This document shows positions 6,790 through 61,706 of a DNA stretch of 64,000 nt, one piece after another. Under the pieces are notes generated by a model. That model did no database searches and was not told the DNA's origin. It saw only the letters and a list, made by a program, of their open reading frames with translations. The number at the start of each line of letters is the position of its first letter. Positions within the stretch are counted from its first letter, which is position 1. The stretch covers positions 3,606 to 67,605 of the forward strand of contig DASQLQ010000175.1 of the NCBI GenBank assembly GCA_035629935.1, read 5' to 3'. This stretch comes from Actinomycetota bacterium. GTDB lineage: Bacteria; Actinomycetota; CADDZG01; WHSQ01. Made by a program: the position numbers and the translations under genes.

Positions 6790-7689
6790 ATGACCTCATC
6801 AGGCATCCACCGTCATGAGGTAACCGGTGTGGCTTTCGCCGTTCTGGCCGCCGTCGCCTTCGGCACCTTGGCGATATCGGCGAAACTCGCCTACCGCGCC
6901 GGGGTCGAGGCCTTGCCGTTGCTCGCCGCGCGCTTCACCCTGTCGGCGATCCTCCTTGCGGCATACAACCGGGCTCGAGGGATCAAGATCTCCGTGGACA
7001 AACGTCGTTTCACGCGATTGATCTTCGGTGGTGGGTTCCTATACGGGCTGGAGGCATCTCTGTTCTTCTCTGCGCTCACCCGAGCACCGGCTGCCGTGGT
7101 GGGTCTCGTCTTCTACAGCTATCCCATCTGGACGACCCTCCTCGGCTTCATGATGCGCATCGAGCCTTTCCGCTGGAGCACGATCGCGGCTCTCGTCCTG
7201 GGAGGGAGCGGGGTCGCGTTGGTGTTCTCTCTGCCGGAAACGTCTCTCGCGGGACCTCTGCTGGCAGTCGCCGCGGCGATCATGGTCGCGATCTATCTGA
7301 TCTACATGCAGCTGGTACTACGCGACGTCGAAGCTTCGGTCGCCGCGATGTGGACCACCGCGGGGAGCGCCGTCGCCTTCATCGCTGCAAGCCTCGTCAC
7401 CGGTCAGAGTTTCCCGGCCGCGGCGATCGGACCTTCCCTGTCGCTTGCGTTCGCTTCGTCCATCGCGTTTGTGGCCCTCTTCCAGGCGATCACTCGTATC
7501 GGCTCGGCGAGGTCGTCGATAGCTGCGATGCTCGAACCGGTCACCACGTTGATCCTGGCTGCGATCTTTCTTGGCGAGGAGCTCGGCCCCCGCATCCTCC
7601 TCGGGGGTGCATTGATCGTGGCGGTCCTGCCCGTCCTGGCCGCCTCGGGCAGAGAGGAAAGTGGGATGCCGGCGGCCGACACACTCTAG
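6790..7689 (+). CDS. EamA/DMT family transporter
   Basis: 299 aa; about 10 TM helices in two EamA-like halves. Confidence 0.8.
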   Translation: MTSSGIHRHEVTGVAFAVLAAVAFGTLAISAKLAYRAGVEALPLLAARFTLSAILLAAYNRARGIKISVDKRRFTRLIFGGGFLYGLEASLFFSALTRAPAAVVGLVFYSYPIWTTLLGFMMRIEPFRWSTIAALVLGGSGVALVFSLPETSLAGPLLAVAAAIMVAIYLIYMQLVLRDVEASVAAMWTTAGSAVAFIAASLVTGQSFPAAAIGPSLSLAFASSIAFVALFQAITRIGSARSSIAAMLEPVTTLILAAIFLGEELGPRILLGGALIVAVLPVLAASGREESGMPAADTL

Positions 7690-8627
7690 GGATCGAGGAT
7701 CGAAGCGATCTCGTCGAGGTTCTTGGCCTCGAGCTCCACCGATCCGGCGCCTGCGTTCTCTTCGACGTGCTCGGGCGACCGGGAGCCGGCGATCGCTCCG
7801 GTGACACCGGGCTGGTGCCACACCCACGCGAGCGCAAGCTGCGGCAACGTGATCCCGAGCCGGTCGGCGATCGGACGTAAAGCGTCGACCTTCTCGAGGT
7901 TCTTCTCGTAGTTCCCAGGAGAGAACAGGGGCTCGTAGTAGTGGTCGAGTCCTTGCTTGCCACTGCGCCAGTCGTCATCGGAGAACTTCGTGTCCTTGTC
8001 GAAGACACCCGTCAACAATCCGTAGGCGAGAGGGCCGTAGCAGATGATGCCGATCCCCTTGGATTCGCAATAAGGAAACAGGCTGGTCTTCACGCGCTGG
8101 CGAAGCATCGAAAACTGGGGCTGGAGCGAGTCCACATGTCGCACCGCCTCGCACCGCTCGAGCAGATCCACCCCGAAGTTGGAAACGCCGATGTAGCGCA
8201 CCTTGCCTTCGTCGACGAGAGCGGCGCAGGCCTGCCACGTCTCCTCGATCTCGATCGACTCATCCGGCCAGTGGAGCTGGAAGAGATCGATCACGTCGCG
8301 ACCTAGTCGCTTCAGGCTCGCTTCGGCGGCCGCTCTGATCTCGTCGGGGGCAAATCCTGTTCCCCCGGGCTTCGGGGCCACCTTCGTGAAGACCATCGCC
8401 TCCGGCCGGCCCTTGACCGCTTGGCCGACGAGCTCCTCCGACCGGCCGCCGCCGTAGACCTCGGCCGTGTCGATCCACGTGATGCCGTTATCCAGGGCGA
8501 CCTGCATCGCCCTGATCGTTTGTTCGTCCGGCGGGTTCTCGCCCCACCCCATGCCCCCGGCCTCCCAGGCGCCGAACCCGACGACCGATATCTCCGGTCC
8601 ATCACTTCCAAGCTTTCGTTTCTGCAT
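7686..8627 (-). CDS. aldo/keto reductase
   Basis: 313 aa; GFGAWEAGG, IDTAEVYGGGRSEE, LQPQFSML motifs. Confidence 0.9.
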   Translation of the reverse strand: MQKRKLGSDGPEISVVGFGAWEAGGMGWGENPPDEQTIRAMQVALDNGITWIDTAEVYGGGRSEELVGQAVKGRPEAMVFTKVAPKPGGTGFAPDEIRAAAEASLKRLGRDVIDLFQLHWPDESIEIEETWQACAALVDEGKVRYIGVSNFGVDLLERCEAVRHVDSLQPQFSMLRQRVKTSLFPYCESKGIGIICYGPLAYGLLTGVFDKDTKFSDDDWRSGKQGLDHYYEPLFSPGNYEKNLEKVDALRPIADRLGITLPQLALAWVWHQPGVTGAIAGSRSPEHVEENAGAGSVELEAKNLDEIASILDP

Positions 8628-8629
8628 AT

Positions 8630-9079
8630 CTAGCCTCCCAATTTGGCGTGGTTCCAGGACGCGACCCGTTCGAGAGTCAGAACGATGCCCTTGCGTTTGC
8701 CCGCCTGTCGTCTGATCTCGACCTCGGGCCCCTGCACTGCGAGGCCCGTAGCGGGCAACGTGTAGCGCTCGTAGAGCCTTACCCCGATCGCGTAAACATC
8801 ATCGACGTCTTCCACGAGCCGTGCCTCACCTCGCACGAGGATGCCCCGCAGGTTCGCGTACGTCGTGCCTTCCTCGACCATGAATGCGCAACGAGCATCA
8901 CGCTCGACGTTCCGCACCTTTTGACTCTTGGCGTAAGCCCACATGTGAACCTCCCCCGGCGAACCATCCACGAAGGCGAACCACATGCCGGTGAGATGAG
9001 GGAATCCGTCGACCCCCAAGGTCGATAGCGACGCAGTCAGTGGGGCATCCAGAAAACCTGCGATCTCTTCCCTCGACAT
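8630..9079 (-). CDS. PPOX-class (pyridoxamine 5'-phosphate oxidase-like, probably F420-dependent) split-barrel protein
   Basis: Start moved to ATG 9079 (MSREEIAGFLD..LSTLG.DG.PH), a typical PPOX-family N-terminus; upstream extension is low-complexity. Confidence 0.7.
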   Translation of the reverse strand: MSREEIAGFLDAPLTASLSTLGVDGFPHLTGMWFAFVDGSPGEVHMWAYAKSQKVRNVERDARCAFMVEEGTTYANLRGILVRGEARLVEDVDDVYAIGVRLYERYTLPATGLAVQGPEVEIRRQAGKRKGIVLTLERVASWNHAKLGG

Positions 9080-9105
9080 CGATACGTCTACGCGCGGGCT
9101 CACGC

Positions 9106-9127
9106 GGCGCACTCTATAGAGTGCGCC
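9106..9127. promoter_or_regulatory. perfect 22-bp palindrome (operator or RNA hairpin candidate)
   Basis: GGCGCACTCTATAGAGTGCGCC, ends 1 nt before ATG 9129, in a 49-bp divergent intergenic region. Confidence 0.6.
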
Positions 9128-9128
9128 G

Positions 9129-10790
9129 ATGCTGGCACGCAGAGCCGTCGCACTGGTAGTGGTGATGATGCTCGGCGCCGGGGCCTGGTTCCTGACCCGC
9201 GCTGACGAGCCTCCCCCGGCTACACGGCTGTCGACCTCGGATCGCACGTTCGCTTCGACCGATCCTCTCGAGCGAGCTTGCGCCCTCGACGAGGAATACC
9301 TGGTGCGCCTATGGAGAGGTCACCACCCCGTGCACTCGGAAGACATCACGACCGTGCCTCAGGAACCTAACTACTCGGGGTCGTTCGGGGTCACGAGTCA
9401 TTCGGGACCGTGGGACTACGTACAGACGATCCCGCTGGTGTTCTATGGCCCCAACCACATCACCCAGCAGTCTGCGCCACTGAAGAACGTCACGGCGAGC
9501 ATCACCGACGTCTACGCGACCGTCGGTGACCTCGTCGGCGTCGATCTACCCGCCAGAGACGGGGAGGTACTCGACGTCTCTGCAGGACCTCCCCCACCGA
9601 AGCTGATCGTCACGGTCGTATGGGACGGGGTGGGACGGAACGTTCTGGAACGTCACCCCGACGCGTGGCCGAATCTCGCGCGCATGGAGAAGGAAGGGAC
9701 CTCGTTCCTCGACGCCACCGTTGGTTCGTCTCCATCCATAACCCCCGCGACGCATTCCAGCCTGGGCACCGGCTCCTTCCCGCGGGAGCACGGCGTGACC
9801 GCGATCGAGTTTCGCACCGAGGAGGGCGATGTCCGGAGTGCCTTCGCTGGGAAGGACCCAAGTGACCTCGAGCTAACAACTTTCGGCGACGAGATCGACC
9901 TTGCCTTGAACAACGAGCCCCTCGTCGGGATGCTTGCGTGGAAGTCCTGGCATATGGGGATGTTGAGCCATGGTGTCCTGTCCCCGGGCGGTGACGCGGA
10001 CGAGATGACGCTGATCGATCCGCATGGTGGGCTCACCGGTAACGACGCCCTCTACACGACGCCGCTCCACTTAACGCGTTTGGAACCGAGGCTTGCCGAA
10101 CTCGCCGCCGAGCTCGACCAGGAGGACGGGAAGCTCGACGGCAACTCGATGGGTCACGACATCCTCGAGATGCACGACAACCCTGCATGGGTGGACTACC
10201 AGGGAGAGCTGCTCCTCCAGATGCTCGAGTCGGGTAGCTACGGGCAGGACGATGTGCCCGATCTGTTCATGACGAACTTCAAAGTCACAGACATCGTGTC
10301 GCACCAGTACTCGATGGACTCGGAAGAAGAGGCCATAGCTCTGCGAGCGCAGGACCGTGTGCTCGGCGAACTTGTCGACTATCTCGATGCCAACGTTCGC
10401 GACTACGTAGTGATCGTCACGGCGGACCACGGGAACACGCCGCCCCCCAAACGGACCGGAGCGTGGCCGATCCTCCAGGGTCAACTGCAGGAAGACGTCG
10501 ACGCCCATTTCGAGATCCCCGACGGCTCCTCCTTGATCGAGCAAACCACCGCCGTGGGTCCCTTCGTGAACCGCTCGACGATGAAAGAGTTGGGCGTGAG
10601 GCAGGCCGAGATCGCGGAGTTCCTCAACGGCTACACGATCGCCGACAACTGGAACGAAGAGGAGCTCCCGGCCGGCTACGAGAACCGGGGAGAAGAGAAC
10701 GTTTTCGCGGCCGCGTTCCCCAGCGACTGGATGGAACGTGTGAACCGATGCGCATTCGGGCAAGAAACACCAATTACCGAAGGCAATTAG
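9129..10790 (+). CDS. alkaline-phosphatase superfamily nucleotide pyrophosphatase/phosphodiesterase-like protein, membrane anchored or secreted
   Basis: 553 aa; N-terminal TM/signal; VVWDGVG...SSPSITPATHSSLGTG (nucleophile Thr region) and VTADHGN metal-site motifs. Confidence 0.7.
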   Translation: MLARRAVALVVVMMLGAGAWFLTRADEPPPATRLSTSDRTFASTDPLERACALDEEYLVRLWRGHHPVHSEDITTVPQEPNYSGSFGVTSHSGPWDYVQTIPLVFYGPNHITQQSAPLKNVTASITDVYATVGDLVGVDLPARDGEVLDVSAGPPPPKLIVTVVWDGVGRNVLERHPDAWPNLARMEKEGTSFLDATVGSSPSITPATHSSLGTGSFPREHGVTAIEFRTEEGDVRSAFAGKDPSDLELTTFGDEIDLALNNEPLVGMLAWKSWHMGMLSHGVLSPGGDADEMTLIDPHGGLTGNDALYTTPLHLTRLEPRLAELAAELDQEDGKLDGNSMGHDILEMHDNPAWVDYQGELLLQMLESGSYGQDDVPDLFMTNFKVTDIVSHQYSMDSEEEAIALRAQDRVLGELVDYLDANVRDYVVIVTADHGNTPPPKRTGAWPILQGQLQEDVDAHFEIPDGSSLIEQTTAVGPFVNRSTMKELGVRQAEIAEFLNGYTIADNWNEEELPAGYENRGEENVFAAAFPSDWMERVNRCAFGQETPITEGN

Positions 10791-58885: not shown

Positions 58886-58969
58886 GAAGTCGTGAATGCT
58901 ACGGAAATGGTGCTCATACCGATAGAGACATGTGGGGAAACGCCAGGCTCGGCCTGCTTGTGGCGAACC

Positions 58970-58998
58970 CTCTTATAGGAGTGCTAAAAGGGTGAGTG
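58970..58998. promoter_or_regulatory. conserved upstream motif of transporter-RHH module 1
   Basis: CCTCTTATAGGAGTGCTAAAA then GGTGAGTG; aligns with 60382-60401 (CCTCCTATAGGAGTGTTATAA); two GAGTG copies about 14 bp apart. Confidence 0.5.
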
Positions 58999-60108
58999 CA
59001 AACTAACCGAGCCAATGCGCGAAGCGACGGCGCTCGATATCTGAGATTGGTCATCGGGATCGGACGTTGGGCCGCTACCCTCTTCCTCTTCATCGGAGCG
59101 ATCCAGGTTCTCAAGACGGGCGCAGGCGAGCTCGACATCCTCGACGCCGGCGGCCGCTTTACTGCCAGCGCTCTCTCGACCTTGGGGTTGGGCTGGATCG
59201 GTGCCATGCTCACGCTCTCGGGCTCACCCGCGGTGGCCACTGCTCTGACTCTCCGCGCTACCGGAGCCATCGGCGAAGTACAGGCATTCACCATGGTGAC
59301 CGGGGCGCGGATGGGGGCCGCCTTCGTCGTTCTACTGGTGGCTGTTCTCTTCGCCTCCCGCCGAGCGGAGGGCCAGCGGATGGCCCCGATATCCACCGCC
59401 GTGATGACGCTCGTGATCACTGCAACCATGTACGTTCCCGGAGCCTTGATAGGCCTAGGGATCCTGGGATGGGATTCCTTCAAAGGCGTCCGTCTCCAAT
59501 CGCCTCCTACCTTCACGGGATTCCTGGATGCCGTCTACGACCCCATCCTCAGCCGGATCGAATCGTGGCCTCCGGCCATCCTGTTCGTGGGGGGCCTTGT
59601 CTTATTGGTCGTTTCGTTCAAGTTGCTCGATTCCATGGTTCCCGAGTTCGACGAGAAACGACTGTCCGACTCGGTTATGAAGCGCCTGCGATCCAAGTGG
59701 CCGATGTTCTTCCTCGGGATCGGGATCGTGATCGCGACGTTGTCCGTGTCGGTCGCGTTAACCGTTCTGATCCCGCTTGTCGGGAAGGGTTACCTCAAGA
59801 GGGAAGACCTAGTGCCCTACATCATCGGGGCCGATATCGGGACCCTGGTGGACAAGCTCCTGATCGCCTTTTTGGTCGGCGCGGGGACGATCAATCCGGC
59901 GTCCCCCGTTCGAGTCATACTCGCCGAGTTGGTAGGTGTAACCATCATGGGTCTAGTGATCATGGGCTTCATCTATATCCCGTTCCGAAGGGCCATCTGG
60001 AGGTTCCAGCGGCAGATGGTCCGAAGCAAACCTCGACTTGCAGCCTTTACGGGCGCTCTCTTCGTCATACCGATCGCTCTGATCGTGGTGGGTGTCGTCA
60101 CGACATGA
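58996..60108 (+). CDS. Na/Pi-cotransporter-like (PNaS family-like) membrane protein, copy 1
   Basis: 370 aa; two internal repeats resembling Na_Pi_cotrans signature regions (LSGSPAVATALTL..MVTGARMGAAF and LSVSVALTVLIPL..IIGADIGT); start GTG 58996 (TTG 59047 possible). Confidence 0.5.
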   Translation: MQTNRANARSDGARYLRLVIGIGRWAATLFLFIGAIQVLKTGAGELDILDAGGRFTASALSTLGLGWIGAMLTLSGSPAVATALTLRATGAIGEVQAFTMVTGARMGAAFVVLLVAVLFASRRAEGQRMAPISTAVMTLVITATMYVPGALIGLGILGWDSFKGVRLQSPPTFTGFLDAVYDPILSRIESWPPAILFVGGLVLLVVSFKLLDSMVPEFDEKRLSDSVMKRLRSKWPMFFLGIGIVIATLSVSVALTVLIPLVGKGYLKREDLVPYIIGADIGTLVDKLLIAFLVGAGTINPASPVRVILAELVGVTIMGLVIMGFIYIPFRRAIWRFQRQMVRSKPRLAAFTGALFVIPIALIVVGVVTT

Positions 60109-60359
60109 AGAGAGACGCCGACGCACACGTCACCCTGAAGATCCCGAGACCCCTCTACGAGGCCCTCAAGCAGGTGATCGAAGGATCGGGTTTCCACTCG
60201 GTCACCGAGTTCGCCGTCTACGTGCTGCGAGACCTGGTCTCGCACCGGCGAGACCCCTCCGCCCCGGCCCTCAAAGCGCCGGAGAGTGACGTGGAGGCCC
60301 TGAAGCCGGACGAGATAGAGGCCATCCGCAAGCGTCTGGAGTCCCTCGGTTACCTGTAA
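60105..60359 (+). CDS. ribbon-helix-helix (CopG/Arc/MetJ-like) small protein, copy 1
   Basis: 84 aa; ATGA coupling to the transporter; beta-strand VTLKIP + two helices ([30 protein letters not shown]); acidic linker; C-terminal [11 protein letters not shown]. Confidence 0.7.
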   Translation: MKRDADAHVTLKIPRPLYEALKQVIEGSGFHSVTEFAVYVLRDLVSHRRDPSAPALKAPESDVEALKPDEIEAIRKRLESLGYL

Positions 60360-60382
60360 AGACTGAGGGTCGAGAACCACCC

Positions 60383-60407
60383 TCCTATAGGAGTGTTATA
60401 ACACTCC
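60383..60407. promoter_or_regulatory. overlapping perfect palindromes upstream of transporter-RHH module 2
   Basis: CTCCTATAGGAG (60383-60394) overlapping GGAGTGTTATAACACTCC (60390-60407), ending 1 nt before ATG 60409. Confidence 0.55.
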
Positions 60408-60408
60408 G

Positions 60409-61458
60409 ATGCGCTTCGCTTGGTGGGTCCTCAAGTTTCTCCTCGCCTTATTCCTCTTCGTCGGGGCTCTGCAGGTGATGAAGACGGGCGCCGGAGGGAT
60501 AGGCGCCTTGCAACACGGGGGCCTACTGGTGAAGAACGCCGGTTCCACGTTGGGGCTTGGCTGGTTGGGCGCGCTCCTGGTCCTATCGGGCTCCCCGATC
60601 GCAGCTTCCGCCCTTTCCCTCGTCGCCTCGGGCGCCATCGACGAGATCGAAGGTTTCACGATGGTCACCGGGTCGAGGCTGGGCGCGGCGTTCGTCGTGC
60701 TGCTCGTCGCTGTGATCTACGCGTTGCGCGGAGGCGAAGGCAAGCGGATGGCTCCCGTGTCCACCGCGGTGATGGCGTTATCGACGACGGCATTGATCTA
60801 TGTCCCCGGCGCAGTGGTCGGCTTCGCTCTGTTGAAATGGGGGCCGTTCGCACAGCTGAAGCTGACCTTCCCCGGTCAATTCAGCGATCTGGTGGATCTC
60901 GTGTTCGGCCCCCTGCTCGAGCGGATCGAAAACCTTCCAGCGATCCTCCTCTTCGTGGGCGGGCTGGGGCTGCTCTTGGTCGCCTTCAAGTTGATCGACT
61001 CCGTAGTTCCCGAGATGTCGGGAGAATCGATCGAGCGGAACCGATTGTCCTGGCTCAGTGGCAAATGGACGATGTTCGGACTCGGCTGTCTCGTTGCCCT
61101 GATCGCGATGTCAGTGTCGGTCGCGCTGACCGTGCTGGTCCCCCTTGTAGCTAAGGGATACGTGAAACGCGAGGACATACTTCCGTACATCATGGGCGCG
61201 AACATCACGACATTGGGAGACACACTCTTGGCGGCGTTCCTGCTCCATTCACCGGCCGCGGTCAGGATCGTCCTCGCCGGGATCATCGGGACGAGCCTCA
61301 TCAGCATCCTGATACTCGCCTTCGCTTATCCACAGATCCGCCGAGGGATATGGAAGTTCCAACGACAGGTAGTGAAGAGCAAGCCGCGCCTGGCAGCCTT
61401 CACTGCGGCCTTATTCGCAGTTCCTGTGGCTTTGATCGTCATAGCGGGGGTGGTCTAG
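60409..61458 (+). CDS. Na/Pi-cotransporter-like (PNaS family-like) membrane protein, copy 2
   Basis: 349 aa; collinear with 58996..60108 at roughly 55-60% identity by eye. Confidence 0.5.
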   Translation: MRFAWWVLKFLLALFLFVGALQVMKTGAGGIGALQHGGLLVKNAGSTLGLGWLGALLVLSGSPIAASALSLVASGAIDEIEGFTMVTGSRLGAAFVVLLVAVIYALRGGEGKRMAPVSTAVMALSTTALIYVPGAVVGFALLKWGPFAQLKLTFPGQFSDLVDLVFGPLLERIENLPAILLFVGGLGLLLVAFKLIDSVVPEMSGESIERNRLSWLSGKWTMFGLGCLVALIAMSVSVALTVLVPLVAKGYVKREDILPYIMGANITTLGDTLLAAFLLHSPAAVRIVLAGIIGTSLISILILAFAYPQIRRGIWKFQRQVVKSKPRLAAFTAALFAVPVALIVIAGVV

Positions 61459-61706
61459 TGCCGAAAGAAGGAAGCGACAACCAGGTCACTCTGAAGATCC
61501 CACGACCTCTGTACGAGGCTCTGAAACAGGTCATCGAGGGCTCGGGGTTCCATTCCGTGACCGAGTTCGCCGTTTACGTCCTCCGCGATCTCGTCTCTCA
61601 CCGGAAGGGCGTGACCGACAAGGCCCCCGAGGCCGACGTGGAGGCCCTCAAGCCGGACGAGATCGAGGCCATCCGCAAGCGCCTCGAGTCTTTGGGGTAT
61701 CTCTAG
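61458..61706 (+). CDS. ribbon-helix-helix (CopG/Arc/MetJ-like) small protein, copy 2
   Basis: 82 aa; GTG overlapping the transporter TAG by 1 nt; 40-aa RHH core and 23-aa C-terminus identical to copy 1. Confidence 0.7.

What the first reader, a model, noticed from the sequence alone, without database searches (positions are those of the whole stretch)
9106..9127. Perfect 22-bp palindrome abutting the start codon of the AlkP/NPP-family phosphodiesterase gene
GGCGCACTCTATAGAGTGCGCC (11-bp arms, no spacer) fills almost half of the 49-bp divergent region between the PPOX-like gene and the phosphodiesterase gene. It ends 1 nt before ATG 9129.

An AT-centred perfect palindrome of this length is very unlikely by chance in DNA of about 64% GC. 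Its core CTC-TATA-GAG with flanking CACTC/GAGTG resembles the CTCCTATAGGAG and GGAGTG...CACTC palindromes in front of the two Na/Pi-cotransporter-like genes at 58970-60407.

One speculative reading is a common regulator, possibly the RHH proteins encoded there. It would link a phosphate-releasing phosphodiesterase to phosphate-type transporters. The TATAGA could alternatively be a -10 element for a leaderless transcript.
Basis: partly seen in the sequence, partly recalled or inferred. Interest (0 to 1): 0.6.

Follow-up and report, generated by a model that had tools for sequence, protein, structure and literature searches.

The report
Palindromic two-way promoter for leaderless genes
The perfect palindrome is most likely a tiny two-way promoter: two mirror-image -10 boxes set back to back, each starting a messenger RNA at its gene's start codon. 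Its unusually strict conservation in related bacteria suggests that an unidentified regulator also binds it.

Summary
The palindrome is real and is longer than reported. It is 24 bp (9105-9128, CGGCGCACTCTA|TAGAGTGCGCCG) and occurs once in a 2.87-Mb actinobacterial MAG.

It fills 24 of the 25 nt between two divergent start codons: ATG 9129 (AlkP/NPP phosphodiesterase) and GTG 9103. GTG 9103 is the revised start of the PPOX-like gene, not ATG 9079.

Each half is a TAGAGT (TANNNT) -10 box lying 6-7 nt from its start codon. That is the geometry of actinobacterial leaderless promoters. About 317 starts in this genome have it, including 7 other compact divergent pairs. It is therefore a member of the known bidirectional-promoter kind. 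This scan has already reported that kind on other DNA.

What stands out is conservation. The 20-bp core is invariant in six orthologous loci (70-96% protein identity), while only 6-12% of flanking four-fold sites are invariant. A control two-way promoter at similar divergence keeps only about 10 of 22-24 positions. This points to an extra constraint, probably an operator for an unknown symmetric regulator.

The proposed link to the RHH/NaPi genes is unlikely. Their conserved 16-bp operator has arms 2 bp further apart and occurs once per genome, at its own locus.

The parts
9105..9128 (.). 24-bp perfect palindrome CGGCGCACTCTA|TAGAGTGCGCCG. It fills 24 of the 25 nt between the two divergent start codons.
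   Evidence: unique in the genome
9107..9126 (.). 20-bp core GCGCACTCTATAGAGTGCGC. It is invariant in six orthologous loci (five different source records) with 70-96% PDE protein identity.
9117..9122 (+). -10 hexamer TAGAGT (TANNNT), 6 nt upstream of ATG 9129. Predicted promoter of a leaderless PDE mRNA.
   Evidence: Geometry is enriched genome-wide. Orthologues carry TAGCCT/TACCCT/TAGGTT at the same distance.
9111..9116 (-). -10 hexamer TAGAGT on the minus strand, 7 nt upstream of GTG 9103. Predicted promoter of a leaderless PPOX-like/AKR mRNA.
9123..9128 (+). Discriminator GCGCCG between the -10 box and the predicted +1 (A of ATG 9129). Its first four bases belong to the invariant core.
9104..9110 (-). 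Discriminator GCGCCGC (minus strand) between the -10 box and the predicted +1 (G of GTG 9103).
9129..10790 (+). AlkP/NPP-family phosphodiesterase gene (PF01663), with an N-terminal membrane anchor or signal.
8630..9103 (-). PPOX-class (PNPOx_N, F420-type-like) gene. Start revised to GTG 9103.
7686..8627 (-). Aldo/keto reductase gene, 2 nt downstream of the PPOX-like gene. Probably the same transcript.
   Evidence: the same order in L023, L173 and L175
10811..11818 (+). Patatin-like phospholipase gene, 20 nt after the PDE gene. Probably the same transcript.
   Evidence: the same order in L021 and L175
11815..13479 (+). Acyl-CoA synthetase-type (AMP-binding) gene that overlaps the patatin stop by 4 nt. 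Probably the same transcript.
   Evidence: the same order in L175

Best explanation
The palindrome is a compact bidirectional core promoter. Two mirror-image -10 hexamers (TAGAGT) lie back to back as A-N3-TA|TA-N3-T.

Each is followed by a GC-rich discriminator and then, 6 or 7 nt later, by a start codon. RNA polymerase bound in one orientation would start a leaderless mRNA at ATG 9129, covering the PDE, patatin lipase and acyl-CoA synthetase genes. Bound in the other orientation it would start at GTG 9103, covering the PPOX-like oxidoreductase and aldo/keto reductase genes.

The two predicted start points are only 26 bp apart, so the two polymerase binding modes exclude each other.

Shown here: the geometry, its genome-wide use, its conservation at this locus across the family, and the strict invariance of the 20-bp core in the closest relatives.

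Inferred: the transcription start points. Also inferred is the reason for the invariance. The most likely reason is that the same 20 bp also serve as the operator of a symmetric, probably dimeric, regulator. Sitting on both -10 boxes, it would switch both transcription units off together. That regulator is not encoded within about 9 kb and is unidentified.
For: 1. TANNNT placed 6 or 7 nt before ATG/GTG is about 2.3-fold over-represented in this genome. It is followed by an ORF of >=150 aa in 60% and 47% of cases, against a 20% baseline. That gives 317 such starts. TAGAGT is among the ten commonest hexamers, and there is no -35 signal. This matches the mapped leaderless promoters of Mycobacterium tuberculosis (PMC3898074).
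2. Both sides of the palindrome fit this geometry.
3. Family orthologues of 55-64% identity keep a TANNNT 6-7 nt before the PDE start. Where the PPOX-like gene is divergent they keep a second one before its ATG, with 6-24 bp between the boxes.
4. The PDE frame has a stop (the TAG of TAGAGT) 9 nt upstream of ATG 9129, and the gap is only 25 nt. There is no room for a leader with a ribosome-binding site.
5. Seven other divergent pairs in this genome share a TA step (ANNNTANNNT, starts 23-25 bp apart). This is the published '23-bp class' of bidirectional promoters (PMC12825309, PMC12976309).
6. Extra constraint. The 20-bp core is invariant at 20 of 20 positions in six loci. Four-fold sites of the flanking genes are invariant at only 6/49 and 4/64, and codon positions 1+2 at 76% and 67%.
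7. Control. A two-way leaderless promoter in relatives of 82-73% identity, two of them from the same samples, keeps only about 10 of 22-24 positions. Both its discriminators and one hexamer's middle bases vary.
Against:
- The predicted start-point distance of 26 bp is not one of the published preferred distances (10, 18, 23 bp).
- No regulator gene lies within about 9 kb.
- No second copy or half-site relative of the motif exists in the genome. An operator would therefore serve this one locus only.
- In the 67% orthologue L175 the same GCGCAC/GTGCGC arms are kept but lie 2 bp closer, around a shared-TA dyad. That fits a constraint on each promoter half better than a rigid dimer.
- Only six sequences from five different source records define the invariance.
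Confidence: 0.55

Rival explanations
1. Promoter only. The palindrome is two back-to-back leaderless core promoters and nothing else binds it. The perfect symmetry arose by an inverted duplication or template switch that copied one half onto the other. Each half (TAGAGT plus GCGC) is then conserved because polymerase itself prefers it.
For: - All the promoter evidence above applies.
- L175 keeps GTGCGC after each -10 box although the two halves lie 2 bp closer. This suggests that each half is constrained on its own.
- In the control promoter one whole hexamer (TAGTGT plus the next T) is also invariant, so hexamer interiors can be conserved without an operator.
- There is no nearby regulator and no second site.
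Against: - Genome-wide, the middle bases of the hexamer and the discriminator carry almost no information (0.03-0.06 bits; GCGC is not preferred).
- The control promoter's discriminators vary freely at the same divergence.
- 20 of 20 invariant positions exceeds even codon positions 1+2 of the flanking genes.
Confidence: 0.3
2. The palindrome is an operator of the RHH proteins encoded next to the NaPi-like genes at 58996-61706. This would tie the phosphodiesterase to phosphate-type transporters in one regulon.
For: - The resemblance is real. The NaPi/RHH operator in relatives is CACTC[CT]TATA[GA]GAGTG, and the palindrome here contains CACTC-TATA-GAGTG.
- Both loci lie on the same contig in G000, G011 and G019.
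Against: - The NaPi/RHH motif always has 6 bp between CACTC and GAGTG. The PDE site has 4 in all its conserved copies.
- Aligned on the centre, only CTATAG is shared.
- The conserved flanks differ (GCG...CGC here, TTATAG or TTGA there).
- In 11 of 24 family genomes the 16-mer occurs exactly once, at the NaPi-RHH locus. In the loci examined the family's PDE orthologues have no such palindrome, so the regulon looks like self-regulation only.
- CTA|TAG at the centre is already forced by two abutting TAG-type -10 boxes.
- The small proteins match no Pfam or NCBIfam model.
Confidence: 0.07
3. A transcribed hairpin. Promoters further upstream, inside the neighbouring coding regions, make leadered mRNAs. 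The palindrome would then fold as a 10-12 bp stem next to the start codon, acting as a translational block, a processing site or a two-way terminator.
For: The strand folds well as a hairpin (-13.5 kcal/mol as DNA, z = -4.2). The outer pairs 11 and 12 change on both arms in L023 and L024.
Against: - No T-tract or terminator-like site, no sigma-70-type upstream promoter and no Rfam match.
- The stem is invariant rather than covarying.
- There is no ribosome-binding site.
- Both start codons sit at the leaderless distance from a TANNNT, as in hundreds of other genes here.
- The outer-pair changes are G/C swaps in a GC run, and in L021, L022 and L173 the pairing there is broken.
Confidence: 0.05
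4. A CIRCE-like heat-shock operator bound by HrcA, because the arms GCACTC/GAGTGC are the CIRCE arms.
For: The six inner arm bases are identical to those of CIRCE. The genome has four canonical CIRCE sites.
Against: The genome's own CIRCE sites are TTAGCACTC-N9-GAGTGCTAA. Here the spacer is 4, the TTA/TAA flanks are missing, and the genes are not chaperone genes.
Confidence: 0.02

Closest known systems
Prokaryotic bidirectional promoters built on -10 element symmetry (Warman et al. 2021 Nat Microbiol, cited in PMC12976309; PMC12825309), in particular the '23-bp class' in which -12T and -11A of the two promoters co-locate
   Same: Two -10 elements on opposite strands in one short pseudo-symmetric stretch between divergent genes. 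Polymerase binding in the two orientations is mutually exclusive. This genome has seven clear 23-bp-class pairs.
   Different: Here the hexamers abut (TA|TA) instead of sharing the TA, so the predicted starts are 26 bp apart, not 10, 18 or 23. Both transcripts are leaderless. The symmetry is perfect over 24 bp and conserved over 20 bp, well beyond what the -10 consensus needs.
Actinobacterial leaderless promoters (TANNNT 7-12 bp upstream of the TSS, no -35; M. tuberculosis, PMC3898074), including divergent leaderless pairs such as prpD/Rv1129c
   Same: The TANNNT hexamer, no -35 signal, a start codon at the predicted +1, and closely juxtaposed divergent promoters.
   Different: No TSS data exist for this uncultured organism. 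In this case the two promoters are exact mirror images.
Repressor operators that overlap the -10 box of a leaderless gene, for example the 28-bp perfect palindrome at G000:C173:8797-8824 in this same genome
   Same: A perfect palindrome laid over a TANNNT box 6 nt from an ATG.
   Different: That site serves one gene, which also has a TTGACA -35. The PDE site serves two genes and no regulator is known for it.
NaPi-like/RHH module operator CACTC[CT]TATA[GA]GAGTG of the same bacterial family
   Same: CACTC and GAGTG arms around a TATA centre.
   Different: The arms lie 2 bp further apart. The flanks differ. In L180 and L188 it begins inside a TTGACA (-35-like) and lies upstream of a TATAAG (-10-like). 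There is one copy per genome, at its own locus.

Membership tests
Bidirectional promoters with symmetric -10 elements | Two -10 elements on opposite strands within one short symmetric stretch between divergent transcription units | tested here: met
   TAGAGT at 9117-9122 (+) and 9116-9111 (-), back to back
Bidirectional promoters with symmetric -10 elements | Divergent start points at one of the preferred distances (10, 18 or 23 bp; PMC12825309) | tested here: not met
   The predicted starts 9103 and 9129 are 26 bp apart because the hexamers abut rather than overlap. Seven other pairs in the genome are at 23-25 bp.
Bidirectional promoters with symmetric -10 elements | Experimentally mapped divergent transcription start sites | not testable with these tools
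The organism is known only from metagenomes.
Actinobacterial leaderless genes | TANNNT hexamer about 6-8 nt upstream of the start codon and no room for a Shine-Dalgarno leader | tested here: met
   Spacing is 6 nt (+) and 7 nt (-). The gap is 25 nt, and an in-frame stop lies 9 nt before ATG 9129. The geometry is enriched genome-wide.
Actinobacterial leaderless genes | The same arrangement in orthologues | tested here: met
   TANNNT lies 6-7 nt before the PDE start in 14 of the 29 family loci scanned. Where the PPOX-like gene is divergent, a second one lies before its ATG in 6 of 10 loci.
Operator of a symmetric transcription factor | Dyad symmetry conserved beyond what the promoter consensus requires | tested here: met
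   The 20-bp core is invariant against 6-12% at four-fold sites. The control promoter keeps about 10 of 22-24 positions.
Operator of a symmetric transcription factor | A cognate regulator identified, or binding shown | tested here: not met
   No regulator gene within about 9 kb on either side. No other site in the genome. Binding cannot be tested with these tools.
RHH operator of the NaPi-like module | 16-bp palindrome CACTC[CT]TATA[GA]GAGTG with 6 bp between the CACTC and GAGTG arms | tested here: not met
   The PDE site has 4 bp between the arms in all conserved copies. The 16-mer form is found once per genome, at the NaPi-RHH locus, in 11 of 24 family genomes.
CIRCE / HrcA operator | TTAGCACTC-N9-GAGTGCTAA upstream of chaperone genes | tested here: not met
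   The spacer is 4, there are no TTA/TAA flanks, and the context is not chaperone genes. Four canonical CIRCE sites lie elsewhere in the genome.
Intrinsic terminator or REP-like repeat | A hairpin followed by a T-tract, or many copies in the genome | tested here: not met
   No terminator-like site. The motif is single-copy.
PhoP/PhoB PHO box | Direct repeat units (established knowledge of actinobacterial PHO boxes) | tested here: not met
   The element is an inverted repeat, not a direct repeat. Phosphate response itself is not testable here.

The most novel reading that the evidence does not exclude
The perfect symmetry is itself the selected trait. On an exactly mirror-symmetric core promoter the polymerase's choice of orientation would be an unbiased coin-flip. 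Individual cells would then express either the lipid/phosphoester-scavenging operon or the PPOX/AKR operon, giving mutually exclusive, noisy expression. Alternatively, the 24-bp palindrome extrudes as a cruciform under the negative supercoiling that divergent transcription creates, and so works as a built-in supercoil-sensing brake. In either case no dedicated regulator is involved.
Probability: 0.06. Interest if true: 0.7.

Novelty: new member of a known kind. Interest (0 to 1): 0.3.

Why it matters
It gives a clean, comparative example of how small an actinobacterial control region can be. Twenty-five bases carry two promoters, two transcription starts that are also translation starts, and probably an operator.

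It corrects the start of the PPOX-like gene. It also shows that compact two-way leaderless promoters are a regular design in this uncultured lineage, with eight pairs in 2.9 Mb.

The strictly conserved 20-mer is a ready-made probe for finding the unknown regulator of a secreted phosphodiesterase / lipase / acyl-CoA synthetase operon that may serve phospholipid scavenging. It does not open a new category of system.

Tried and rejected
1. Regulon search. The 20-, 16-, 14- and 12-mers with up to 5 mismatches, and half-site patterns with variable spacing, found no second site in the genome. The best near-match (C126:15099) lies inside an aroA-like ORF.
2. Public collections. The 20-mer is absent from 185,579 species genomes and from the JGI metagenome set. 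The 16-mer gives more than 140 hits. Apart from one further orthologue (L048), they are unrelated low-GC taxa, terminator-like hairpins or conserved genes.
3. CIRCE/HrcA was rejected on spacer and flanks.
4. RNA element. No Rfam match, terminator or E. coli-type promoter was found.
5. Chromosome dif/Xer site and PhoP box were considered from memory only and rejected. The element keeps its place between the same two genes, has no dif-like core and is not a direct repeat.
6. NrdR-box resemblance was recalled from memory only (acaCwAtATaTwGtgt). There are no nrd genes here, and it was not tested further.
7. Symmetric changes at outer pairs 11 and 12 were examined as possible covariation. They are too few and are G/C swaps in a GC run, so they were not counted as evidence.
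9. Warman et al. 2021 itself is not held in the paper library, so it is cited only through papers that describe it.

Full report
**Observation**

The sequence GGCGCACTCTATAGAGTGCGCC is at 9106-9127. The perfect palindrome is one pair longer on each side. Its arms are 9105-9116 and 9117-9128, 12 nt each, 100% complementary and with no spacer.

The window is part of contig C175 of a 2.87-Mb, 198-contig, 62.3%-GC assembly. Close protein homologues carry the source label Actinomycetota MAG. Genome-wide there are eight spacerless perfect palindromes with arms >=12. Ten first-order Markov simulations of the genome gave 0-1, mean 0.4.

The motif is single-copy. Searches with 20-, 16-, 14- and 12-mers at up to 5 mismatches, and half-site patterns with variable spacing, found no second site. 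The closest near-match lies inside an aroA-like ORF.

**Genes**

- On the + strand ATG 9129 opens an AlkP/NPP-type phosphodiesterase (PF01663). A patatin-like lipase gene follows after 20 nt, and an AMP-binding acyl-CoA synthetase gene overlaps the patatin stop by 4 nt.
- On the - strand lies a PPOX-class, PNPOx_N-fold gene, with an aldo/keto reductase gene 2 nt downstream.
Eight codons upstream there is an in-frame GTG at 9103, giving VSPRVDVSM.
- In the orthologues this extension is kept as (V/M)SPR(V/A)DVSM, with third-position changes. The first codon alternates between GTG and ATG.
- The gene therefore starts at 9103. The divergent gap is 25 nt and the palindrome fills 24 of them.

**What the halves are**

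In family-level orthologues (55-64% identity) the PDE start codon is preceded at 6-7 nt by a TANNNT hexamer, mostly TAGCCT. Where the PPOX-like gene is divergent, its ATG is preceded the same way by TAGGGT, TAAGGT, TAGTCT and similar hexamers.

This is the signature of actinobacterial leaderless promoters. In M. tuberculosis the -10 is TANNNT, 7-12 bp upstream of the TSS, with no -35. There, 22-26% of genes are leaderless and closely juxtaposed divergent promoters are common (PMC3898074).

I tested whether this genome uses the same design.
- TANNNT placed 6 or 7 nt before ATG/GTG occurs 307 and 283 times, against about 130 at other spacings.
- It is followed by an ORF of >=150 aa in 60% and 47% of cases, against a 20% baseline and 13-28% for a control hexamer.
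- The 317 such starts show TAG-type hexamers, with TAGAGT in the top ten. There is no -35 signal and almost no information in the discriminator.

In the window, TAGAGT at 9117-9122 lies 6 nt before ATG 9129. The mirror TAGAGT at 9116-9111 lies 7 nt before GTG 9103. The PDE frame is closed 9 nt upstream of its ATG by the TAG of the hexamer itself. A leadered mRNA with a ribosome-binding site is therefore hard to fit.

**A recurrent design**

Pairing the 317 starts gave 19 divergent pairs within 150 nt.
- Seven share the central TA (ANNNTANNNT), with start codons 23-25 bp apart.
- This is the published '23-bp class' of bidirectional promoters, in which -12T and -11A of the two promoters co-locate (PMC12976309). 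Preferred distances of 10, 18 and 23 bp are given in PMC12825309.
- The raw ANNNTANNNT pattern with flanking start codons is not itself enriched: 9 observed against 5.5 simulated. However, seven of the nine instances have long ORFs on both sides.
- The window's pair is the only one with abutting hexamers (TA|TA, starts 26 bp apart). It is also the only pair that is symmetric beyond the hexamers.

**Conservation**

The closest homologues of the PDE in the 5.8-billion-protein collection were traced to their contigs.

The loci L021 (96% identity), L022 (81%), L023 (73%), L024 (74%) and L172/L173 (71/70%; identical over this stretch, from two different samples) all keep GCGCACTCTATAGAGTGCGC between the same two start codons.

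| Sites compared across window, L021-L024 and L173 | Invariant |
|---|---|
| 20-bp core | 20/20 |
| Four-fold sites, PPOX-like gene | 6/49 |
| Four-fold sites, PDE gene | 4/64 |
| Codon positions 1+2, PPOX-like gene | 76% |
| Codon positions 1+2, PDE gene | 67% |

- The outer pairs 11 and 12 vary. In L023 and L024 they change on both arms, and L024 is again a perfect 24-mer. In L021, L022 and L173 the outer pairing is broken. I do not count this as covariation.
- A metagenome contig (L048) keeps an 18-bp palindrome.
- At 67% identity the element decays. L174 has ...CACTCTA|TAAAGTG..., which is imperfect. L175 has GCGCAC-CTTAAA-GTGCGC, a shared-TA dyad with the same arms 2 bp closer.
- No genome of the 86-member family has the palindrome. 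G000 is the only member of its genus, and the other PDE orthologues are <=64% identical. There the two -10 boxes are 6-24 bp apart.
- The palindrome is thus a derived, compacted state of an older divergent leaderless promoter pair. It has been held fixed within a genus-level clade.

**Control**

To see what a promoter alone conserves, I took another compact two-way leaderless promoter of this genome: a PHP-domain gene and an ATP-dependent DNA ligase gene at C66:76843/76866. I fetched relatives of 82, 74, 74 and 73% identity. Two come from the same samples as L022 and L172.

Only about 10 of 22-24 intergenic positions are invariant there. One hexamer is fully conserved. The other varies in its middle bases (TAGAGT, TAGGCT, TAGTGT), and both discriminators vary in sequence and even in length.

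The invariance of the GAG bases and of four discriminator bases on both sides at the PDE locus therefore goes beyond ordinary promoter constraint.

**Mechanism**

I read the element as a two-way leaderless core promoter. I rate that part about 0.8 likely. Its full 20-bp dyad is probably also the operator of a symmetric regulator that covers both -10 boxes and co-represses both operons. I rate the operator about 0.5 given the promoter.

Against the operator:
- No regulator gene lies within about 9 kb.
- There is a single site in the genome.
- In L175 the same arms lie at a different spacing, which would suit a constraint on each half better than a rigid dimer.

The main rival is 'promoter only'. 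In that reading the symmetry was created by an inverted duplication or template switch.

A transcribed hairpin is unlikely. There is no T-tract, no upstream E. coli-type promoter and no Rfam hit. The stem is invariant rather than covarying, although the strand would fold at -13.5 kcal/mol as DNA.

That region is a tandem duplication of a two-gene module. One copy is a NaPi-like gene (58996-60108) plus an 84-aa gene (60105-60359). The other is a NaPi-like gene (60409-61458) plus a second small gene ending at 61706. The small proteins match no Pfam or NCBIfam model.

- In relatives the module is preceded by a 16-bp palindrome, CACTC[CT]TATA[GA]GAGTG.
- A pattern search that allowed both geometries found exactly one site per genome in 11 of 24 family genomes. 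It was always the 16-bp form, and where the small gene had been located (5 of the 11 genomes) the site lay within about 1.5 kb of it. The 14-bp form was found only in G000, at the PDE gene.
- The resemblance is therefore real, but the two motifs are separately conserved. They have different arm spacing (6 against 4 bp) and different flanks. Aligned on the centre they share only CTATAG, which two abutting TAG-type -10 boxes produce anyway.
- I put a shared regulator at about 0.07.
- CIRCE shares the six inner arm bases, but the genome's four CIRCE sites have the canonical N9 spacer and TTA/TAA flanks.

**Novelty**

Bidirectional promoters built on -10 symmetry and leaderless actinobacterial promoters are both established. 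Earlier notes of this scan describe palindromic two-way leaderless promoters in other genomes, including an A-N3-TATA-N3-T dyad read as a promoter pair plus operator. I treated those notes as leads only.

This case is a new member of that kind. It is notable for the abutting-hexamer geometry and for strict conservation of the whole dyad.

**Limits**

- The invariance rests on six sequences from five different source records.
- Warman et al. 2021 could not be read directly.

Noticed in passing
G000:C173:8797-8824 (outside the window): 28-bp perfect palindrome CATGTTGTCAGGATATCCTGACAACATG. It overlaps a TATCCT -10 box 6 nt before the ATG of a 171-aa gene, and a TTGACA lies 18 nt upstream. It looks like a classic repressor operator on a one-way leaderless promoter, since no minus-strand gene starts there.
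   Followed up: partly
G000:C43:325-348, C43:4142-4165, C100:4227-4250, C12:29439-29460 (outside the window): A family of 22-24-bp perfect palindromes, CGCCGA-N-GG/CG-(T/C)CTAG(A/G)-...-TCGGCG, whose arms differ between copies but stay complementary. It could be a repeat element or an operator family.
   Followed up: no
window 58968-58983 and 60380-60395; L177-L201: The NaPi-like plus 84-aa gene module is tandemly duplicated in this genome. Its 16-bp palindrome CACTC[CT]TATA[GA]GAGTG is found once per genome in 11 of 24 family genomes. In G000 both copies have a degenerate left arm (CCCTC). In L180 and L188 the palindrome begins inside a TTGACA and is followed by TATAAG, as expected for an operator in a promoter spacer.
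   Followed up: partly
window 902/940 and 23907/23942; G000 C66:76843/76866, C189:4975/4999, C91:465/489, C91:13953/13977, C112:1801/1826, C143:15816/15841, C96:632/657: Further divergent leaderless-type gene pairs. Seven have the two -10 boxes sharing one TA step and start codons 23-25 bp apart. The two pairs in the window have 12 and 9 bp between the boxes.
   Followed up: partly
L021:460-520: The 96%-identical metagenome orthologue has a frameshift just after the PDE start (MLARRAVALTSGGDARCGGL...), so its gene was called at 442 aa. This is either an assembly error or a broken copy.
   Followed up: no
G000:C49:44078, C152:669, C168:15340, C180:581; C66:27930-27951: Four canonical CIRCE elements (TTAGCACTC-N9-GAGTGCTAA) and a perfect 22-bp palindrome containing an actinobacterial SOS-box-like core (TCGAAC-ATAT-GTTCGA).
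   Followed up: no
L175:542-1462: In the 67% relative an extra gene (PF18741, MTES_1575) sits between the EamA and aldo/keto reductase genes. Otherwise the gene order EamA-AKR-PPOX|PDE-patatin-AMP ligase is the same as in the window.
   Followed up: no
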